A model generated the notes under the pieces. That model searched no databases. It was not told where the DNA came from and worked only from the letters and a program-made list of their open reading frames with translations. A DNA stretch of 64,000 nucleotides, taken from positions 20,499 through 84,498 of the forward strand of contig CANRHX010000001.1 in the NCBI GenBank assembly GCA_947630545.1, read 5' to 3'. Shown here in pieces: positions 21,153 to 55,497 of the stretch (the stretch's first letter is position 1; each line of letters opens with the position of its first letter). The position numbers and the translations under genes are program-made. The stretch comes from an uncultured Clostridia bacterium (GTDB lineage: Bacteria; Bacillota; Clostridia; TANB77; CAG-508).

Positions 21153-21223
21153 TTTTGTGTCAACGGTTCCAGGTTTGGATGACACAAAATGTGTCAACGG
21201 TTCCGGGTTTGAATGACACAAAT
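21153..21223. repeat. REP-like palindromic tandem repeat, 2 units (GTGTCA-N17-TGACAC), orientation A
   Basis: gtgtcaacggttccaggtttggatgacac and gtgtcaacggttccgggtttgaatgacac. Confidence 0.85.
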
Positions 21224-21244
21224 TAGGAACTACCGGTACTAATC

Positions 21245-23368
21245 ATGAAAAATGGAGGTGAAAAATTGGCAAAAAAGGTAATCAATAAAAACAACATTAA
21301 TTTAAGATTTAATATAGCAACGATTATAACATATTTTGTTGGTATAATCCTAATTGTGCAATTATTCAACCTTCAAATAGTCCATGGAGAGGAATATAGA
21401 GAACAGTCGAATACACGTCTAACGCGTGAAACATCATTAGAGGCTGCAAGAGGTAAAATATTAGATAGAACAGGAAGTGTACTTGTTACATCAGAGACCA
21501 CATTTGGATTAGAATTATATAAAAGTAAAGTAGATTCAGAAACATTAAATAATTGCATGTTAGCTATAGTAAATACATTAACAAAATATAAAAAGTATGA
21601 GCCAGATTCATTTCCAATAGAAGTAAATCCATATAAATACACAATAAAAGGAGAAGAACTTACAAATTGGCAACAAGAAAATGGTATAACAGTTGGTAAA
21701 ACTCCTGAACAAGTTTTTAATGAATACAAAGAGAAATTTGAAGTTAAGAATACTAATCTTGAAGATGCAAGAAAAATAATAGGATTAAGATATGAAATAT
21801 CTAAAACAGGTTACAGTAGCACAAGAGCATATAGATTGGCAGACAATATATCACGTGAAGCAGTTGCTGAATTCAGTGAAAAAAGTGATCAATTTCCAGG
21901 TATAAATATAGTTGTAGAGCCCAAAAGACAATATACTTCAGGAACTGTTGCATCTCATATTCTAGGGTATGCAGGGAAAATAAATCAAACTGAATATGAA
22001 GAGAACAAAGATGAATATGACATTAATGACATAATAGGAAGAACAGGAATTGAATATGCATTTGAAGGATACCTGAAAGGTAAAAACGGAACAAGGCAAA
22101 TTGATATGGGGGTTGATGGAACATCATCTGGAGAATATGTAACCAAAGATGCTGTTGCAGGTTCAAACATAGTACTTACTATTGATGCAAATTTACAAAG
22201 AATTGTTGAAAAAGCTTTAGAGCAAAATATAAAGAAAATTGCAAGTGGAGGATTTGGAAAAAAATATGATGCAAAAGCAGGTAGTGCAGTTGTAATGAAC
22301 GTAAAAACAGGAGAAGTTCTTGCAATGGCAAGTTATCCAGACTATAATCCAGCCCTATTTGTTGATGGAATAAGTACCAAAGATTGGAACAATTACAATA
22401 ATAACAAAAATCATCCACTTGTCAACAAAGCAATGCAAGTATCATATTCACCAGGATCAACGTTCAAAATGGTTTCAGCAATTGCAGCATTAGAATCTGG
22501 AGTAGTAACAACTACAGAAAGAATTAATGATACAGGAGTATACAAACTTGGCAATAGAACTTGGAATTGTTGGTACTATACAGATTATCATGTTGGACAT
22601 GGAAGCCTTAACGTATCCGGTGCAATAAAAAATTCATGTAACTACTATTTTTACGAAGTAGGAAAAAGAATGGGAATAGATAAGCTAGTAAAATATGCTA
22701 AATACTTTGGTTTAGGAAGTAAAACAGGAATAGAACTTGGTGATGAAGCAAAAGGGGTATTAGCAAGCAAACAAGTAAAAGAGGCAAGAGGAGAAACATG
22801 GGTTGCAGGTGATACATTAAACTCAGTAATTGGACAAGGACTAAATGAATTTACTCCACTTCAAATGGCGAAATATATAAGTATTTTAGCAAATGGTGGA
22901 AAAAAAGTAGATGTATCAATAGTAAAATCAGTAATAAATGCAGATGGTACAGAAGTTCCAAGAGAAGAAATAGACAACTATATAAATAAAAGGTTGAACT
23001 TAACAGAAGAGGAAGATGATGGAACTACTATAAATAAAGATTATTTAAAAGTAATACTAAAAGGAATGCAGTCCGTAACACAAGAGGTAGGTGGAACTGC
23101 ATACAACATATTCAAAAACTTTAGCATAAAAGTTGGAGGAAAAACAGGTTCAGCAGAAGCGCCAGGAAACAAAGTAAACGCTTGGTTTGTTGGATTTGCA
23201 CCATTTGATGATCCAGAGATAGCAATAGTAGTTATGGTTGAAAATGGTGGACATGGAAATTATACAGCAGAGGTTGTAAGAGATATAATGGCAGAATACT
23301 TTGGAATGAATACACAAGATATAAAAGAAGACTTATCTGCTAAGGTTTATACTGAAATTTTACAATAA
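21245..23368 (+). CDS. mrdA: penicillin-binding protein 2 (elongasome transpeptidase)
   Basis: 707 aa with an N-terminal TM. It has the SXXK motif 'STFK', an 'SCN' motif, and 'KTGS'. It sits in the mreBCD-pbp-minC order. Confidence 0.85.
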   Translation: MKNGGEKLAKKVINKNNINLRFNIATIITYFVGIILIVQLFNLQIVHGEEYREQSNTRLTRETSLEAARGKILDRTGSVLVTSETTFGLELYKSKVDSETLNNCMLAIVNTLTKYKKYEPDSFPIEVNPYKYTIKGEELTNWQQENGITVGKTPEQVFNEYKEKFEVKNTNLEDARKIIGLRYEISKTGYSSTRAYRLADNISREAVAEFSEKSDQFPGINIVVEPKRQYTSGTVASHILGYAGKINQTEYEENKDEYDINDIIGRTGIEYAFEGYLKGKNGTRQIDMGVDGTSSGEYVTKDAVAGSNIVLTIDANLQRIVEKALEQNIKKIASGGFGKKYDAKAGSAVVMNVKTGEVLAMASYPDYNPALFVDGISTKDWNNYNNNKNHPLVNKAMQVSYSPGSTFKMVSAIAALESGVVTTTERINDTGVYKLGNRTWNCWYYTDYHVGHGSLNVSGAIKNSCNYYFYEVGKRMGIDKLVKYAKYFGLGSKTGIELGDEAKGVLASKQVKEARGETWVAGDTLNSVIGQGLNEFTPLQMAKYISILANGGKKVDVSIVKSVINADGTEVPREEIDNYINKRLNLTEEEDDGTTINKDYLKVILKGMQSVTQEVGGTAYNIFKNFSIKVGGKTGSAEAPGNKVNAWFVGFAPFDDPEIAIVVMVENGGHGNYTAEVVRDIMAEYFGMNTQDIKEDLSAKVYTEILQ

Positions 23369-23472
23369 AAATGTGTCACTCAAACCCGGAACCAATGACA
23401 CAAAATGTGTCACTCAAACCCGGAACCAATGGCACAAAATGTGTCAACCAAACCCGGAACCGATGACACAAA
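23367..23472. repeat. REP-like palindromic tandem repeat, 3 units, orientation B
   Basis: Three units of (aaaatgtgtcactcaaacccggaaccaatgacac), with no spacers. Confidence 0.85.
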
Positions 23473-35580: not shown

Positions 35581-35581
35581 T

Positions 35582-35644
35582 GTGTCACTGGTTCCGGGTT
35601 TGGTTGACACATTTTGTGTCAAAGATTCCAGGTTTGGATTAGTC
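35582..35644. repeat. REP-like palindromic repeat, 2 units (second degenerate), orientation A
   Basis: gtgtcactggttccgggtttggttgacac and gtgtcaaagattccaggtttggattagtc. Confidence 0.75.
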
Positions 35645-50646: not shown

Positions 50647-51876
50647 ATGGAACTAAAGACAAATTATCAATATACATATTTTATACATCCTTTCATAGTA
50701 AAGGAACAAAGATATTCAAAATATTTATTAAAAATGTTAAAAGATAAAAACTGTAAATTGAAAATATATAAAAAGGAAAAAGATTTAAATTTATATAAAT
50801 ATTTTCTACCAGAAATTAGAAATTTCTTATTTTCTAGTTTTGACTTTACAAGCAATAAATTAAAAAGTTTAGAAACTTTGCCATTAGACACTCAAGCAGC
50901 AATCTTAGCAAAGTATTCTTGTACTATGTTTGAGTATAATTTAGAGAAAGTTATACAAGGAAAAACCGATGAAGAAAAAGGAATATTTTTTGATATAAGT
51001 AAAATAGAGATAATTTGTTTTAATACAGGAATATGCTTTTTATGTATAAAAACAAATGTAGAAAATACAAATCTTTTTGATGATATTTTAAATTTTAATT
51101 ATAAATTTAGAGATATAAATCAAGAGTTTAAACCAAAACAATATGATAAAATAAAAATACAAACAGGAGCATTTTCAGATGTAAAAAAATTTACAGATTT
51201 AATAAAAGACATAACAGGTGCAAATTTTGATGCAGTAAGATATGACATAGATACAGAAAGATTTTTAACATATTCTTATGCTTGTGTGGAGCAAGATTAT
51301 TGGAATGAATATAGAAAATTCGAAAATATTGAACATTACTTTATAAAGTTTTCAAATATATTGCCTGCTGATGATTTTACTAATTTTGTGAAAGATGAAT
51401 CAGTTTCAATTTCAGAATGGAAATATGCCAAAATAGGATTAACAAAGCAAGGTGTCACACTATTCTCATCTGCAACAGAAATGAATAATTTTACTATTTT
51501 CCCTGAAGAATTTGAAACACAATATTTTTATACATATATATTAAACTTGTATAAAAAGATATATTTAAATAAGTTAAGTGTAGAGTTTAGTAATTCAAAA
51601 AATATTAAGAATACTAGAAAAAAATTTATAGAATTTACAAAAAATATATGGATACAAGAAATTACACAAGATGAGGCTGGAACTATAATAAATCGTAGAT
51701 TAAATGAGATTCTTGAGCTAGACGCATTGTATGCATATACAAAAAATAAATATGATATATTATATAAAGATTTAAATATAGAGAAAAATTCAAAGATAAC
51801 AGTTGCATTAGCAATTATACTATCAGTTGCTATAGCACTTAATGTAGTAAACTTTGTGCAATTATTAAATAAATAA
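50647..51876 (+). CDS. hypothetical protein with C-terminal TM anchor
   Basis: 409 aa. The single C-terminal TM is 'ITVALAIILSVAIALNVV'. No recognisable domain. Confidence 0.4.
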   Translation: MELKTNYQYTYFIHPFIVKEQRYSKYLLKMLKDKNCKLKIYKKEKDLNLYKYFLPEIRNFLFSSFDFTSNKLKSLETLPLDTQAAILAKYSCTMFEYNLEKVIQGKTDEEKGIFFDISKIEIICFNTGICFLCIKTNVENTNLFDDILNFNYKFRDINQEFKPKQYDKIKIQTGAFSDVKKFTDLIKDITGANFDAVRYDIDTERFLTYSYACVEQDYWNEYRKFENIEHYFIKFSNILPADDFTNFVKDESVSISEWKYAKIGLTKQGVTLFSSATEMNNFTIFPEEFETQYFYTYILNLYKKIYLNKLSVEFSNSKNIKNTRKKFIEFTKNIWIQEITQDEAGTIINRRLNEILELDALYAYTKNKYDILYKDLNIEKNSKITVALAIILSVAIALNVVNFVQLLNK

Positions 51877-51881
51877 AATCT

Positions 51882-52100
51882 GTGTCAATGGTTCCGTGTG
51901 TCATTGGTTCCGGGTTTGCGTGACACACATTATATTAATTTTGAAATACTTGGTGTCGCAACTTCCAAAATAAAAAACTAGTTTGTAAGTTGCTCCAATT
52001 CGCACTCGTTGCACTCGTTTGATCGCTTACGCGTATTTCAAAATTAATATAATGTGTGTCACGCAAACCCGGAACCAATGACACACGGAACCATTGACAC
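51882..52100. repeat. composite 218-bp palindrome: 68-bp perfect inverted arms (REP-like units) around an 83-bp unique core
   Basis: The left arm 51882-51949 is the exact reverse complement of the right arm 52033-52100. The core 51950-52032 is GC-richer and has its own sub-palindromes (gcaactt/aagttgc) and a direct repeat (gcactcg twice). Confidence 0.8.
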
Positions 52101-52131
52101 AACATTTTAATTTATGGAAAGGAATATTTAT

Positions 52132-52599
52132 ATGAATATAGCATGTGGCACAGACATAATTGAAATTTCACGAATCAAAGATGCAATTATATCTGATGCA
52201 GGTGAAAAATTTTTAGAACGAATATATACTAAAAAAGAAATAGAATATTGTGAAAGCAAGAAAGAACAAAAATATCAACATTATGCAGCTAGATTTGCTG
52301 CCAAAGAAGCAATATTCAAAGCCATTTCTGGAAGACTAAAAAATAAATTTAATATAGAATGGAAACAAATAGAAATACAAAATGAAGAAACTGGCAGGCC
52401 ATATGTCACAATTCATAATGAAGTTTCTAACCAAATAGAACAAATTGACTTAAGCATGTCACATTGCAAAGAATATGCAACGGCAAATGTTATAGTAAAT
52501 TTTGTGTGTCAATCAAACCCGGAACCAATGACACAAAATGTGCCACCCAAACCCGGAACCAATGACACAAAATGTGTCAATCAAACCCGGAACCGATGA
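52132..52599 (+). CDS. acpS: holo-[acyl-carrier-protein] synthase (C-terminus extended into the repeat array)
   Basis: 'MNIACGTDIIEISRIK' is the AcpS signature. The conserved body ends at about 52500. The last 33 codons are a translation of the REP-like repeats. Confidence 0.7.
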   Translation: MNIACGTDIIEISRIKDAIISDAGEKFLERIYTKKEIEYCESKKEQKYQHYAARFAAKEAIFKAISGRLKNKFNIEWKQIEIQNEETGRPYVTIHNEVSNQIEQIDLSMSHCKEYATANVIVNFVCQSNPEPMTQNVPPKPGTNDTKCVNQTRNR

Positions 52600-52605
52600 C
52601 ACAAA
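52504..52605. repeat. REP-like palindromic tandem repeat, 3 units, orientation B
   Basis: Three units, including gtgtcaatcaaacccggaaccaatgacac, lie between acpS and tatD. Confidence 0.85.
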
Positions 52606-55392: not shown

Positions 55393-55497
55393 AGTGTGTC
55401 ACTCAAACCCGGAACCGATGACACAAAGTGTGTCACTCAAACCCGGAACCGATGACACAAAATGTGTCATTAAAACCCGGAACCAATGACACAAAAA
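55391..55497. repeat. REP-like palindromic tandem repeat, 3 units, orientation B
   Basis: gtgtcactcaaacccggaaccgatgacac occurs twice, followed by gtgtcattaaaacccggaaccaatgacac. Confidence 0.85.

What the first reader, a model, noticed from the sequence alone, without database searches (positions are those of the whole stretch)
51882..52100. 218-bp perfect-arm palindrome (68-bp inverted arms) enclosing an 83-bp GC-enriched unique core: MITE-like element or cruciform/sRNA
51882-51949 is the exact reverse complement of 52033-52100. The arms are made of the REP-like unit plus a 22-bp AT-rich segment (cattatattaattttgaaatac). The 83-bp core (ttggtgtcgcaacttcc...gcactcgttgcactcgtttgatcgcttacgc) is much GC-richer than its surroundings. 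It has its own stem (gcaactt/aagttgc) and a direct repeat (gcactcg twice). Perfect 68-bp arms imply very recent formation: a MITE-type insertion, a hairpin-templated duplication, or a mobilised small RNA cassette.
Basis: seen in the sequence. Interest (0 to 1): 0.65.

Follow-up and report, generated by a model that had tools for sequence, protein, structure and literature searches.

The report
Dispersed palindromic repeat with conserved core
The perfect 69-bp hairpin between two housekeeping genes is real. It is one copy of an apparently undescribed small non-coding repeat family scattered through the genomes of related gut Clostridia, with a strongly conserved ~90-base centre whose function is unknown.

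Summary
Arms 51881-51949 and 52033-52101 are 69 nt and 100% complementary, around an 83-nt core (42% GC in a 28% GC window). Four independent metagenome assemblies support it.

It is not a one-off. The core belongs to a family found twice in Clostridium sp. CAG:440 and in 99 metagenome stretches, mostly human gut, at 23 or more sites. Single contigs carry 2-4 copies.

All copies share three near-invariant sequence blocks, separated by two hairpins that keep pairing through double changes. Most sit at the tip of inverted arms 14-130 nt long, made of an AT-rich segment plus species-specific REP-like hairpin units.

The same site is empty in three related species. At two sites in relatives the core is flipped between strains.

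The window copy is atypical. It has lost hairpin P3, and one arm has been rewritten as the exact complement of the other.

Best reading (0.6): a non-autonomous REP/BIME/MITE-like palindromic repeat, with arms homogenised by arm-to-arm copying. The role of the core is unknown; it could be a structured RNA or a protein or ssDNA recognition module. There is no match in Rfam, phages, plasmids or viral contigs. No transposase was found, no target duplication, and no strand signal for an RNA.

The parts
51881..51896 (-). Outer end of the left arm: a truncated REP-like unit (first 16 nt, TGTGTCAATGGTTCCG). Its mirror image is at 52086-52101.
   Evidence: The same truncation in both arms shows the arms were copied from one another.
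51897..51927 (-). Full 31-nt REP-like unit of the left arm, in minus orientation.
   Evidence: 0 mismatches to the pattern; the unit occurs 16 times in the window.
51928..51949 (+). Left inner arm, 22 nt and AT-rich (CATTATATTAATTTTGAAATAC). It is homologous to the inner arms of the family, but the family's 2x3-nt internal loop is replaced by GAA, the exact complement of TTC in the right arm.
51950..52032 (+). Conserved core, 83 nt. Covariance model R1 matches 51944-52038 at 89.8 bits. Block A is 51949-51962 (CTTGGTGTCGCAAC). Block B is 51989-52008 (GTTGCTCCAATTCGCACTCG). Block C is 52012-52033 (CACTCGTTTGATCGCTTACGCG).
51950..51998 (+). Core hairpin. P1 pairs TTGG (51950-51953) with CCAA (51995-51998). 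P2 pairs GCAACTT (51958-51964) with AAGTTGC (51987-51993), with an AT-rich loop.
   Evidence: P2 keeps pairing through double changes across the family.
52009..52011 (+). Position of hairpin P3, which has collapsed in this copy (CTCG-T-T-GCACTCG). Most copies have GTGC-loop-GCAC here; distant copies have CCATT/AATGG.
52033..52054 (+). Right inner arm, 22 nt and AT-rich (GTATTTCAAAATTAATATAATG). It matches the family's right-arm consensus.
52055..52085 (+). Full 31-nt REP-like unit of the right arm, in plus orientation.
52086..52101 (+). Outer end of the right arm: the truncated REP unit, mirror of 51881-51896.
50647..51876 (+). Upstream neighbour: a conserved 409-aa hypothetical protein. Its stop codon lies 4 nt before the left arm.
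52132..52599 (+). Downstream neighbour: acpS (holo-ACP synthase). It starts 30 nt after the right arm. Its reading frame runs 31 extra codons into the REP array at 52505-52605.

Best explanation
The element is one copy of a dispersed, non-coding palindromic repeat family restricted to a clade of very AT-rich gut Clostridia (Clostridium sp. CAG:440 and relatives).

The unit is a ~85-125-nt core. It has three near-invariant sequence blocks separated by two variable hairpins (P2 and P3). In the CAG:440-like lineages the core is bracketed by inverted arms: an AT-rich inner segment plus one or more of the host's REP-like hairpin units.

Shown:
- The family is multi-copy.
- It occupies different intergenic sites in different species.
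- The window's site is empty in relatives.
- The arms vary from 14 to 130 nt.
- The core together with its inner arms can be inverted by exchange within the outer arms.

Inferred:
- Copies spread as a non-autonomous mobile or recombinational element, comparable to BIME/REPIN, ERIC and Correia repeats. They are tolerated mainly at gene ends.
- The arms are kept or made perfectly complementary by intramolecular copying, either template switching in the hairpin or gene conversion between arms. This is what produced the 69-bp perfect arms here.
- Any transcript running from the 409-aa gene into acpS would fold into a ~69-bp double-stranded stem. That stem could act as a transcription barrier or an RNase III substrate.
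- The invariant blocks of the core are a recognition module, either for the mobilising enzyme or a host protein, or as RNA. What it recognises is unknown.
For: - Family membership. A 22-mer from the core hits two further long palindromes in Clostridium sp. CAG:440. A 20-mer hits 99 metagenome stretches, giving 65 distinct core sequences and at least 23 site clusters. Single contigs carry 2-4 copies.
- Conservation. 44 columns are invariant in 51 distinct copies, while the loops vary freely.
- Structure. 97% of cells are paired and 7 pairs show double changes; 0 of 500 shuffles reach this. RNAalifold finds P0, P1 and P2 independently.
- Arms. They are present in nearly all copies, 14-130 nt, median 54.
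- Site not ancestral. The intergenic region between the 409-aa gene and acpS is 65-167 nt in three related species, with no core and no REP units. This includes CAG:440, which carries the family elsewhere.
- Decay and inversion. In the acpS/tatD spacer, L115 has a truncated copy in the opposite orientation to the full copy in L035, with an identical P2 loop. L094 is flipped relative to L065 and L074 at the same site.
- Arm-to-arm copying in the window. A truncated REP unit is mirrored in both arms, and the left inner arm carries GAA opposite the right arm's TTC, where the family has an internal loop.
- Position. There is no orientation bias relative to flanking genes, and copies are enriched between convergent genes.
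- Surroundings. No transposase or recombinase domain appears among the genes called within 10 kb on either side.
Against: - No target-site duplication is visible at the window copy (flanks AAAATC and ACATTT).
- No autonomous element with the same ends was seen in about 1 Mb of fetched loci.
- Conservation is strongest in the centre rather than at the termini, which is the opposite of MITEs and REPINs.
- Distant copies (L043, L033) have almost no arms and no REP units. The core can therefore exist without the palindrome, which fits a functional RNA or binding site as well as a mobile element.
- Only one copy lies in the 64-kb window, and the copy number in this genome is unknown.
- Transposition has not been observed directly. 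The evidence is site differences between species.
Confidence: 0.6

Rival explanations
1. The core is a gene or cis-element for a new structured non-coding RNA. In this reading the invariant blocks are functional single-stranded or tertiary-contact regions, P1, P2 and P3 are helices, and the long arms are secondary: processing stems or flanking REP terminators.
For: - Unpaired blocks are invariant and helices covary, with variable loop lengths. One distant copy carries a 28-nt extra hairpin inside P2, and P3 is swapped to CCAUU/AAUGG.
- The core persists in lineages with no REP units and hardly any arms.
- It is GC-rich within a 28% GC genome.
Against: - There is no strand signal: G:T-type non-canonical cells number 28 and A:C-type 21.
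- There is no orientation bias relative to neighbouring genes.
- The core is found flipped at the same site.
- No convincing promoter or terminator travels with it.
- There is no Rfam hit.
- P3 is lost in several copies, including the window's.
- The RNAalifold covariation term is small, -0.73 kcal/mol.
Confidence: 0.22
2. It is an invertible (phase-variable) switch. Recombination between the 69-bp arms would flip the core and change expression of acpS/tatD or antisense transcription into the 409-aa gene.
For: - Perfect inverted repeats flank a short segment.
- Flipped states exist at two sites in relatives.
- A promoter-like GCGACA-18-TATATT/TATAAT points outward from the core's 5' block in canonical copies.
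Against: - Flips are rare: 2 of 163 same-site pairs.
- The window species shows one orientation in the window and in two samples.
- Many copies lie between convergent genes, where a promoter would serve nothing.
- Promoter-like hits are no more frequent than in shuffles, and the spacing is 19 nt in the window.
- No invertase lies within 10 kb.
- acpS is a housekeeping gene and an unlikely target for phase variation (general knowledge).
Confidence: 0.08
3. It is a static host feature: a pair of convergent REP-type terminators, or a binding site for a nucleoid protein between inverted REP units (as in E. coli BIME-1/RIP), with no mobility.
For: - Copies are placed at gene ends, and the REP hairpin is followed by a T-rich inner arm on both strands.
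- Relatives carry plain 22-25-bp hairpins at the same site.
Against: - Near-identical cores sit at many unrelated sites, and sites differ between species.
- The terminator scan finds none, though the tool's loop limit of 8 nt excludes this structure.
Confidence: 0.08
4. It is a one-off inverted duplication or an assembly artefact unique to this contig.
For: The arms are perfect, and there is a single copy in the window.
Against: Four independent metagenome assemblies carry both junctions. The core is a conserved multi-copy family elsewhere.
Confidence: 0.02

Closest known systems
BIME / RIP(RIB) elements and REPINs of Proteobacteria (inverted REP pairs, some with a conserved central motif such as the IHF site of BIME-1)
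   Same: Two host REP-type hairpin units lie in inverted orientation around a central segment. The elements are intergenic, multi-copy and mostly at gene ends, and they form a long hairpin. The REP family is also scattered as single units and tandem arrays.
   Different: The central segment here is 125 nt including the inner arms, and it is the most conserved part, with its own covarying hairpins. No RAYT transposase was identified. The core also occurs without REP units in distant lineages. The host is a Firmicute and the sequence is unrelated.
ERIC/IRU (enterobacteria) and Correia/CREE/NEMIS (Neisseria) elements
   Same: They are ~100-150-nt imperfect palindromes, highly conserved in sequence, dispersed in intergenic regions in either orientation. 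They are expected to fold in mRNA; Correia elements are cut by RNase III and can carry outward promoters (established knowledge).
   Different: No TA or other target duplication was seen. The termini are not conserved between copies and arm length varies from 14 to 130 nt. There is no sequence similarity. Processing and promoter activity were not tested.
Classical bacterial MITEs
   Same: It is small and non-coding, has inverted ends, is multi-copy, and is present or absent at orthologous sites.
   Different: There is no target-site duplication and no autonomous partner. Conservation is central rather than terminal, and the arms are built from host REP units that differ between species.
Invertons (invertible promoters of gut bacteria, e.g. 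the Mpi-controlled promoters of Bacteroides fragilis)
   Same: Many copies of a short conserved segment lie between inverted repeats across one genome, and both orientations are found at two sites.
   Different: No promoter was demonstrated and no invertase is nearby. Copies often lie between convergent genes, and flips are rare.

Membership tests
MITE | Small (<~600 bp) and non-coding | tested here: met
   The element is 221 bp. Indels in the loops are not multiples of three across 51 copies. The only ORF, 51935-52105 on the minus strand (56 aa), spans variable loops.
MITE | Terminal inverted repeats shared by the copies | tested here: inconclusive
   Every copy has inverted arms. Only the inner ~20-25 nt are homologous between copies. 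The outer ends differ in length and sequence.
MITE | Target-site duplication | tested here: not met
   The flanks are ...AAAATC | element | ACATTT..., with no direct repeat. No alignable empty site was available to define exact ends.
MITE | Multiple dispersed copies in a genome | tested here: inconclusive
   Met in relatives: 2-4 copies on single contigs and at least 23 site clusters. Only one copy lies in the 64-kb window, and the rest of this genome was not available.
MITE | Autonomous element with the same ends and a transposase | tested here: inconclusive
   No split 5' and 3' blocks flanking a gene were seen in about 1 Mb of loci. No transposase domain lies within 10 kb of the window copy. 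Whole genomes were not searched.
REPIN / BIME | Two REP units in inverted orientation forming a hairpin | tested here: met
   REP units lie at 51897-51927 (minus) and 52055-52085 (plus). The same arrangement occurs in most CAG:440-type copies.
REPIN / BIME | Short spacer, with conservation residing in the REP units | tested here: not met
   The spacer is 127 nt and is the most conserved part. REP stems differ between species.
REPIN / BIME | Cognate RAYT (Y1 transposase) gene in the genome | not tested
   None appears among the genes annotated within 10 kb. The genome as a whole was not searched.
Inverton (invertible promoter) | Both orientations present | tested here: inconclusive
   Flips occur between strains at two sites in relatives. 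The window species shows one orientation in the window and two samples at ~4x coverage.
Inverton (invertible promoter) | Promoter inside the invertible segment, next to a regulated gene | tested here: inconclusive
   Weak outward promoter-like matches appear in canonical copies, no more often than in shuffles. Thirty-three of 81 copies lie between convergent genes.
Inverton (invertible promoter) | Site-specific invertase encoded nearby | tested here: not met
   No recombinase domain lies within 10 kb on either side.
Any Rfam RNA family | Match to a curated covariance model | tested here: not met
   Only spurious plant miRNA-precursor hits, far below their gathering scores. This holds for the window copy and for canonical and divergent copies. 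No tRNA or tmRNA was found.
Intrinsic terminator | GC-rich hairpin followed directly by a T-run | tested here: inconclusive
   The scan finds none, but it only allows loops of 3-8 nt. A T-rich tract (ACATTTTAATTT) follows the right arm.

The most novel reading that the evidence does not exclude
The ~90-nt core would be a new class of structured nucleic-acid element kept by selection across a clade of uncultured gut Clostridia. It could be a non-coding RNA, or a single-stranded-DNA recognition module for an unidentified enzyme. The REP-built arms would make it a flip-flop cassette and continually re-perfect themselves by hairpin-templated copying.
Probability: 0.2. Interest if true: 0.75.

Novelty: new variant of a known kind. 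Interest (0 to 1): 0.5.

Why it matters
- Interspersed palindromic repeats (REP/BIME, ERIC, Correia) are well studied in Proteobacteria and little studied in gut Clostridia. This family gives a defined, searchable example, through alignment A1 and model R1.
- Its architecture is unusual: a conserved, structured centre with arms borrowed from the host's REP units.
- It shows three processes in natural populations: arm-to-arm copying that perfects a palindrome, inversion through the arms, and internal deletion.
- Practically, these elements break short-read metagenome assemblies at the k-mer length, and inverton-finding pipelines could score them as invertons.
- If the core proves to be an RNA or a recognition site for a mobilising enzyme, it would open a new system in organisms that have no cultured representatives.

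Tried and rejected
- Assembly artefact: rejected, because independent contigs carry both junctions.
- Known RNA family: Rfam at gathering and at E<=10 on the window copy, and at E<=1 on four other loci, gave only spurious miRNA-hairpin hits. ARAGORN found nothing.
- Phage or plasmid origin: blastn in distant mode against phages and plasmids gave no match. Three viral-contig pattern scans gave 0 hits.
- Stability of the core alone as RNA: not significant on either strand (z = -0.3 and -1.0).
- Strand test for RNA, G:T against A:C non-canonical cells: 28 against 21, no signal.
- Orientation relative to flanking ORFs: no bias. ORF calls were crude and site redundancy was not removed.
- Protein coding: the minus-strand 56-aa ORF was rejected because the loops carry frame-breaking indels.
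- Composite transposon: two copies 3.4 kb apart in L044 enclose ordinary host genes (CBS-domain protein, WG-repeat protein) and no transposase.
- REP-flanked gene in the window (21199 to 23381): this is PBP2 (mrdA), not a RAYT.
- Arms-only (core-less) copies: a regex search of all loci found none convincing. The plain hairpins at the orthologous site in L008 and L011 (22 and 25-bp stems) loosely resemble the inner arms, but the sequence is too AT-rich and short to call homology.
- Literature: a full-text search for core sequence strings found only an unrelated primer.

Full report
**1. The observation**

The region was read directly. The repeat finder reports arms 51881-51949 and 52033-52101, 69 nt and 100% complementary, with 83 nt between them. 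No other inverted repeat of 30 nt or more within 2 kb exists in the window, apart from pairs of REP units.

Each arm has three parts, reading from outside to inside:
- a 16-nt truncated REP-like unit;
- a full 31-nt unit (TGTGTCA-N6-AAACCCGGAACCAATGACACA);
- a 22-nt AT-rich segment.

The unit occurs 16 times in the window against 0 expected, mostly in tandem arrays with a 34-nt period in intergenic spacers. The 22-nt segment and both halves of the core are unique in the window.

The core is 42% GC, and 52.5% in its right half, in a 27.7% GC window. As single-stranded DNA the element folds at -96 kcal/mol, z = -20.6.

**2. It is real and fixed in this species**

The 409-aa protein upstream and the acpS product downstream were looked up by exact sequence. 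Seven contigs from four ENA samples carry them, and all end inside the arms. Most end 55 nt into the arm, which is the behaviour expected of a de Bruijn assembler meeting an inverted repeat longer than its k-mer (my inference). L003 runs through the left arm to core position 52026. L005 starts at core position 52023 and runs through the right arm into acpS. Both have the window's orientation.

**3. Setting**

The element fills the spacer between a conserved 409-aa hypothetical gene (stop at 51876) and acpS (start at 52132), both on the plus strand. tatD follows. Neighbouring genes within 10 kb carry housekeeping domains and no transposase or recombinase. An OLE RNA lies 3.4 kb upstream. Sources name the closest proteins as uncultured 'Clostridia bacterium' MAGs and Clostridium sp. 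CAG:440.

**4. The orthologous site is empty in relatives**

- In species whose 409-aa protein is 83-84% identical (L008; L011-L013), the same spacer is 93 or 167 nt. It holds only a plain AT-rich hairpin with a 22 or 25-bp stem.
- In CAG:440 strains (78% identical) the spacer is 65 nt with no hairpin.
- None of the loci L008-L013 contains the REP unit or the core.

**5. The core is a family**

A 22-mer from the core, scanned over one genome per species, hit two loci, both in Clostridium sp. CAG:440. Both are again at the tip of long inverted repeats. The window's own genome was not hit, so it is presumably not among the representative genomes.

A 20-mer common to the three copies hit 99 metagenome stretches, mostly human gut, and no viral contig. 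After removing one chance hit in a GC-rich coding region (L016), there are 65 distinct core sequences and at least 23 clusters of flanking sequence. The largest clusters still merge several sites. Single contigs carry 2-4 copies: 4 on a 966-kb contig, 3 on a 334-kb contig and 2 on a 52-kb contig.

**6. Anatomy of the family**

An alignment of 51 distinct copies (A1) has 44 invariant columns, which fall into three blocks:
- block A: CTTGGTGTCGCAAC;
- block B: GTTGCTCCAATTCGCACTCG;
- block C: CTCGTTTGRTCGCTTACGCGG.

Between the blocks lie two variable hairpins:
- P2 is a 9-bp stem with an AT-rich loop of variable length. Its flanks TTGG and CCAA can pair as P1.
- P3 is a 3-4-bp stem in most copies. 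It is CCAUU/AAUGG in the distant copies L043 and L033, and it is absent in L042, L073, L059 and the window.

For the structure P0+P1+P2+P3, 97.1% of cells are standard pairs. Seven pairs show changes on both sides. None of 500 shuffles reaches the observed values, and slid controls drop to 19-43% paired. RNAalifold recovers P0, P1 and P2 on its own, with a small covariation term of -0.73 kcal/mol. A covariance model (R1) finds exactly one copy in the window, at 51944-52038 with 89.8 bits.

**7. The arms**

In nearly all CAG:440-type copies the core is flanked, from inside to outside, by:
- 5 paired bases (GYACC/GGTRC, which covary);
- a small asymmetric internal loop;
- ~15-20 AT-rich paired bases;
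- one or more REP units in inverted orientation.

The REP unit of those genomes has a different stem (ATTGCCA/TGGCAAT) but the same loop (AAACCCGGAAC) as the window's unit. With small gaps allowed, arm length runs from 14 to about 130 nt, median 54, so the window's arms are ordinary for the family.

Distant copies have ~30-nt arms without REP units (L042, L073) or almost no arms (L043, L033), in loci with no REP units at all. The core is therefore the constant part and the long arms are a lineage-specific addition.

**8. How the perfect arms arose**

Two details show that one arm was copied from the other.
- The truncated 16-nt REP unit at the outer end is present as a mirror image in both arms.
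- The window's right inner arm (G-TAT-TTC-AAAATTAATATA) follows the family's right-arm consensus. Its left inner arm reads AATTTT-GAA-ATAC where the family has ATTTTTT-G-YACC. The internal loop has been replaced by the exact complement of the right arm.

Several other copies likewise have mirrored, site-specific REP variants in both arms, for example L032 and L096. I infer hairpin-templated strand switching or gene conversion between arms. The mechanism itself was not observed.

**9. Inversion and decay**

- In the acpS/tatD spacer of CAG:440-like strains, L035 has a full copy. L115-L117 have a copy that lacks everything after P2.
- The two have identical P2 loops but opposite orientation relative to acpS and tatD, and the asymmetric inner arms have travelled with the core.
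- Among pairs of loci that share both flanks, 161 agree in orientation and 2 disagree. Both disagreements involve L094, where the exchange lies within the REP unit.
- Flipping through the arms therefore happens but is infrequent. In the window species only one orientation was seen.

**10. RNA or DNA, and which strand**

- The core alone is not unusually stable as RNA on either strand.
- Non-canonical cells in the helices are G:T-type 28 times and A:C-type 21 times, so there is no strand signal.
- The orientation of the core relative to the nearest long ORFs is (same, opposite) 33, (opposite, opposite) 21, (same, same) 19 and (opposite, same) 8. This means no strand bias and an excess between convergent genes (crude ORF calls, redundant sites).
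- Promoter-like matches are no more frequent than in shuffles. Two canonical copies share GCGACA-18-TATATT/TATAAT pointing outward from block A, but in the window the spacing is 19 nt.
- No terminator was called, although the scan cannot see hairpins with large loops.

These results fit a DNA-level or selfish element. They do not exclude an RNA.

**11. Comparison with known systems**

- There is no Rfam family, no tRNA or tmRNA, no phage or plasmid similarity, and no paper containing the core sequence.
- By architecture the closest kinds are BIME/RIP and REPIN (inverted REP units around a central segment), ERIC and Correia elements (conserved ~100-150-nt intergenic palindromes), and MITEs.
- It fails or leaves open several defining features of each. 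There is no target duplication, no shared termini and no RAYT or transposase, and conservation is central. The membership table gives the detail.
- I therefore describe it as working like these repeats, not as a member of any of them.

**12. Verdict**

The finding is one somewhat degenerate copy of an apparently undescribed palindromic repeat family of gut Clostridia. The function of the conserved core remains open. My probabilities are:
- about 0.6 for a non-autonomous REP/BIME/MITE-like repeat with self-perfecting arms;
- 0.22 for a structured RNA;
- 0.08 for a switch;
- 0.08 for a static host site;
- 0.02 for an artefact or one-off.

Noticed in passing
window 47901-48497 (+): A full-length OLE (ornate large extremophilic) RNA, 362.9 bits, followed by a 185-aa ORF at 48489-49046 in the position usual for oapA. 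CAG:440 strains lack it at the corresponding place and instead have a copy of the palindromic element between spoIIE and the WG-repeat gene (L115 1237-1335).
   Followed up: partly
window 52505-52605 (+), and 21156-21220, 23372-23470, 35581-35611, 47048-47112, 55395-55493: A REP-like family of 31-nt hairpin units in tandem arrays with a 34-nt period. The array after acpS starts right after codon ~124, so the acpS reading frame continues for 31 extra codons through the repeats. Metagenome gene calls keep this 155-aa form, against 125-128 aa in relatives.
   Followed up: partly
window REP units compared with L014, L115 and others: The REP stem differs between species (TGTGTCA/TGACACA here, ATTGCCA/TGGCAAT in CAG:440) while the loop AAACCCGGAAC(C) is identical. 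This is a species-level compensatory change in a dispersed repeat. The species of L008 has yet another hairpin family (GTTGCCAAAAGGG...CCCTTTTGGCAAC and CGGTCAAAAAGG...).
   Followed up: partly
L001-L007 contig ends; also L018, L049, L057, L061, L064, L083, L087, L093: Short-read metagenome contigs very often end inside these elements. In the window species most end 55 nt into the arm, so the family is a systematic cause of assembly breaks.
   Followed up: partly
window 51888..51861 (-): The REP stem supplies a perfect TTGACA. Together with AATAAT 16 nt away it makes an 11/12 promoter-like match pointing antisense into the 3' end of the 409-aa gene.
   Followed up: no
L015 2880-3200, L017, L038 and others: The outer arms (~127 nt) of one CAG:440 site are built from a different, GC-richer repeated sequence (GACATTGGGACGGGGATTTTGTCTTAAGG...). 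A related sequence flanks other copies (L063, L103).
   Followed up: no
L008 5248-5298; L011 5234-5297: At the orthologous spacer, relatives have perfect or near-perfect 22 and 25-bp AT-rich hairpins whose sequence loosely resembles the element's inner arms (L008: ...TATATTTTT-CAC/TAC-AAAATATA...). This could be an arms-only remnant or chance similarity in AT-rich DNA.
   Followed up: partly
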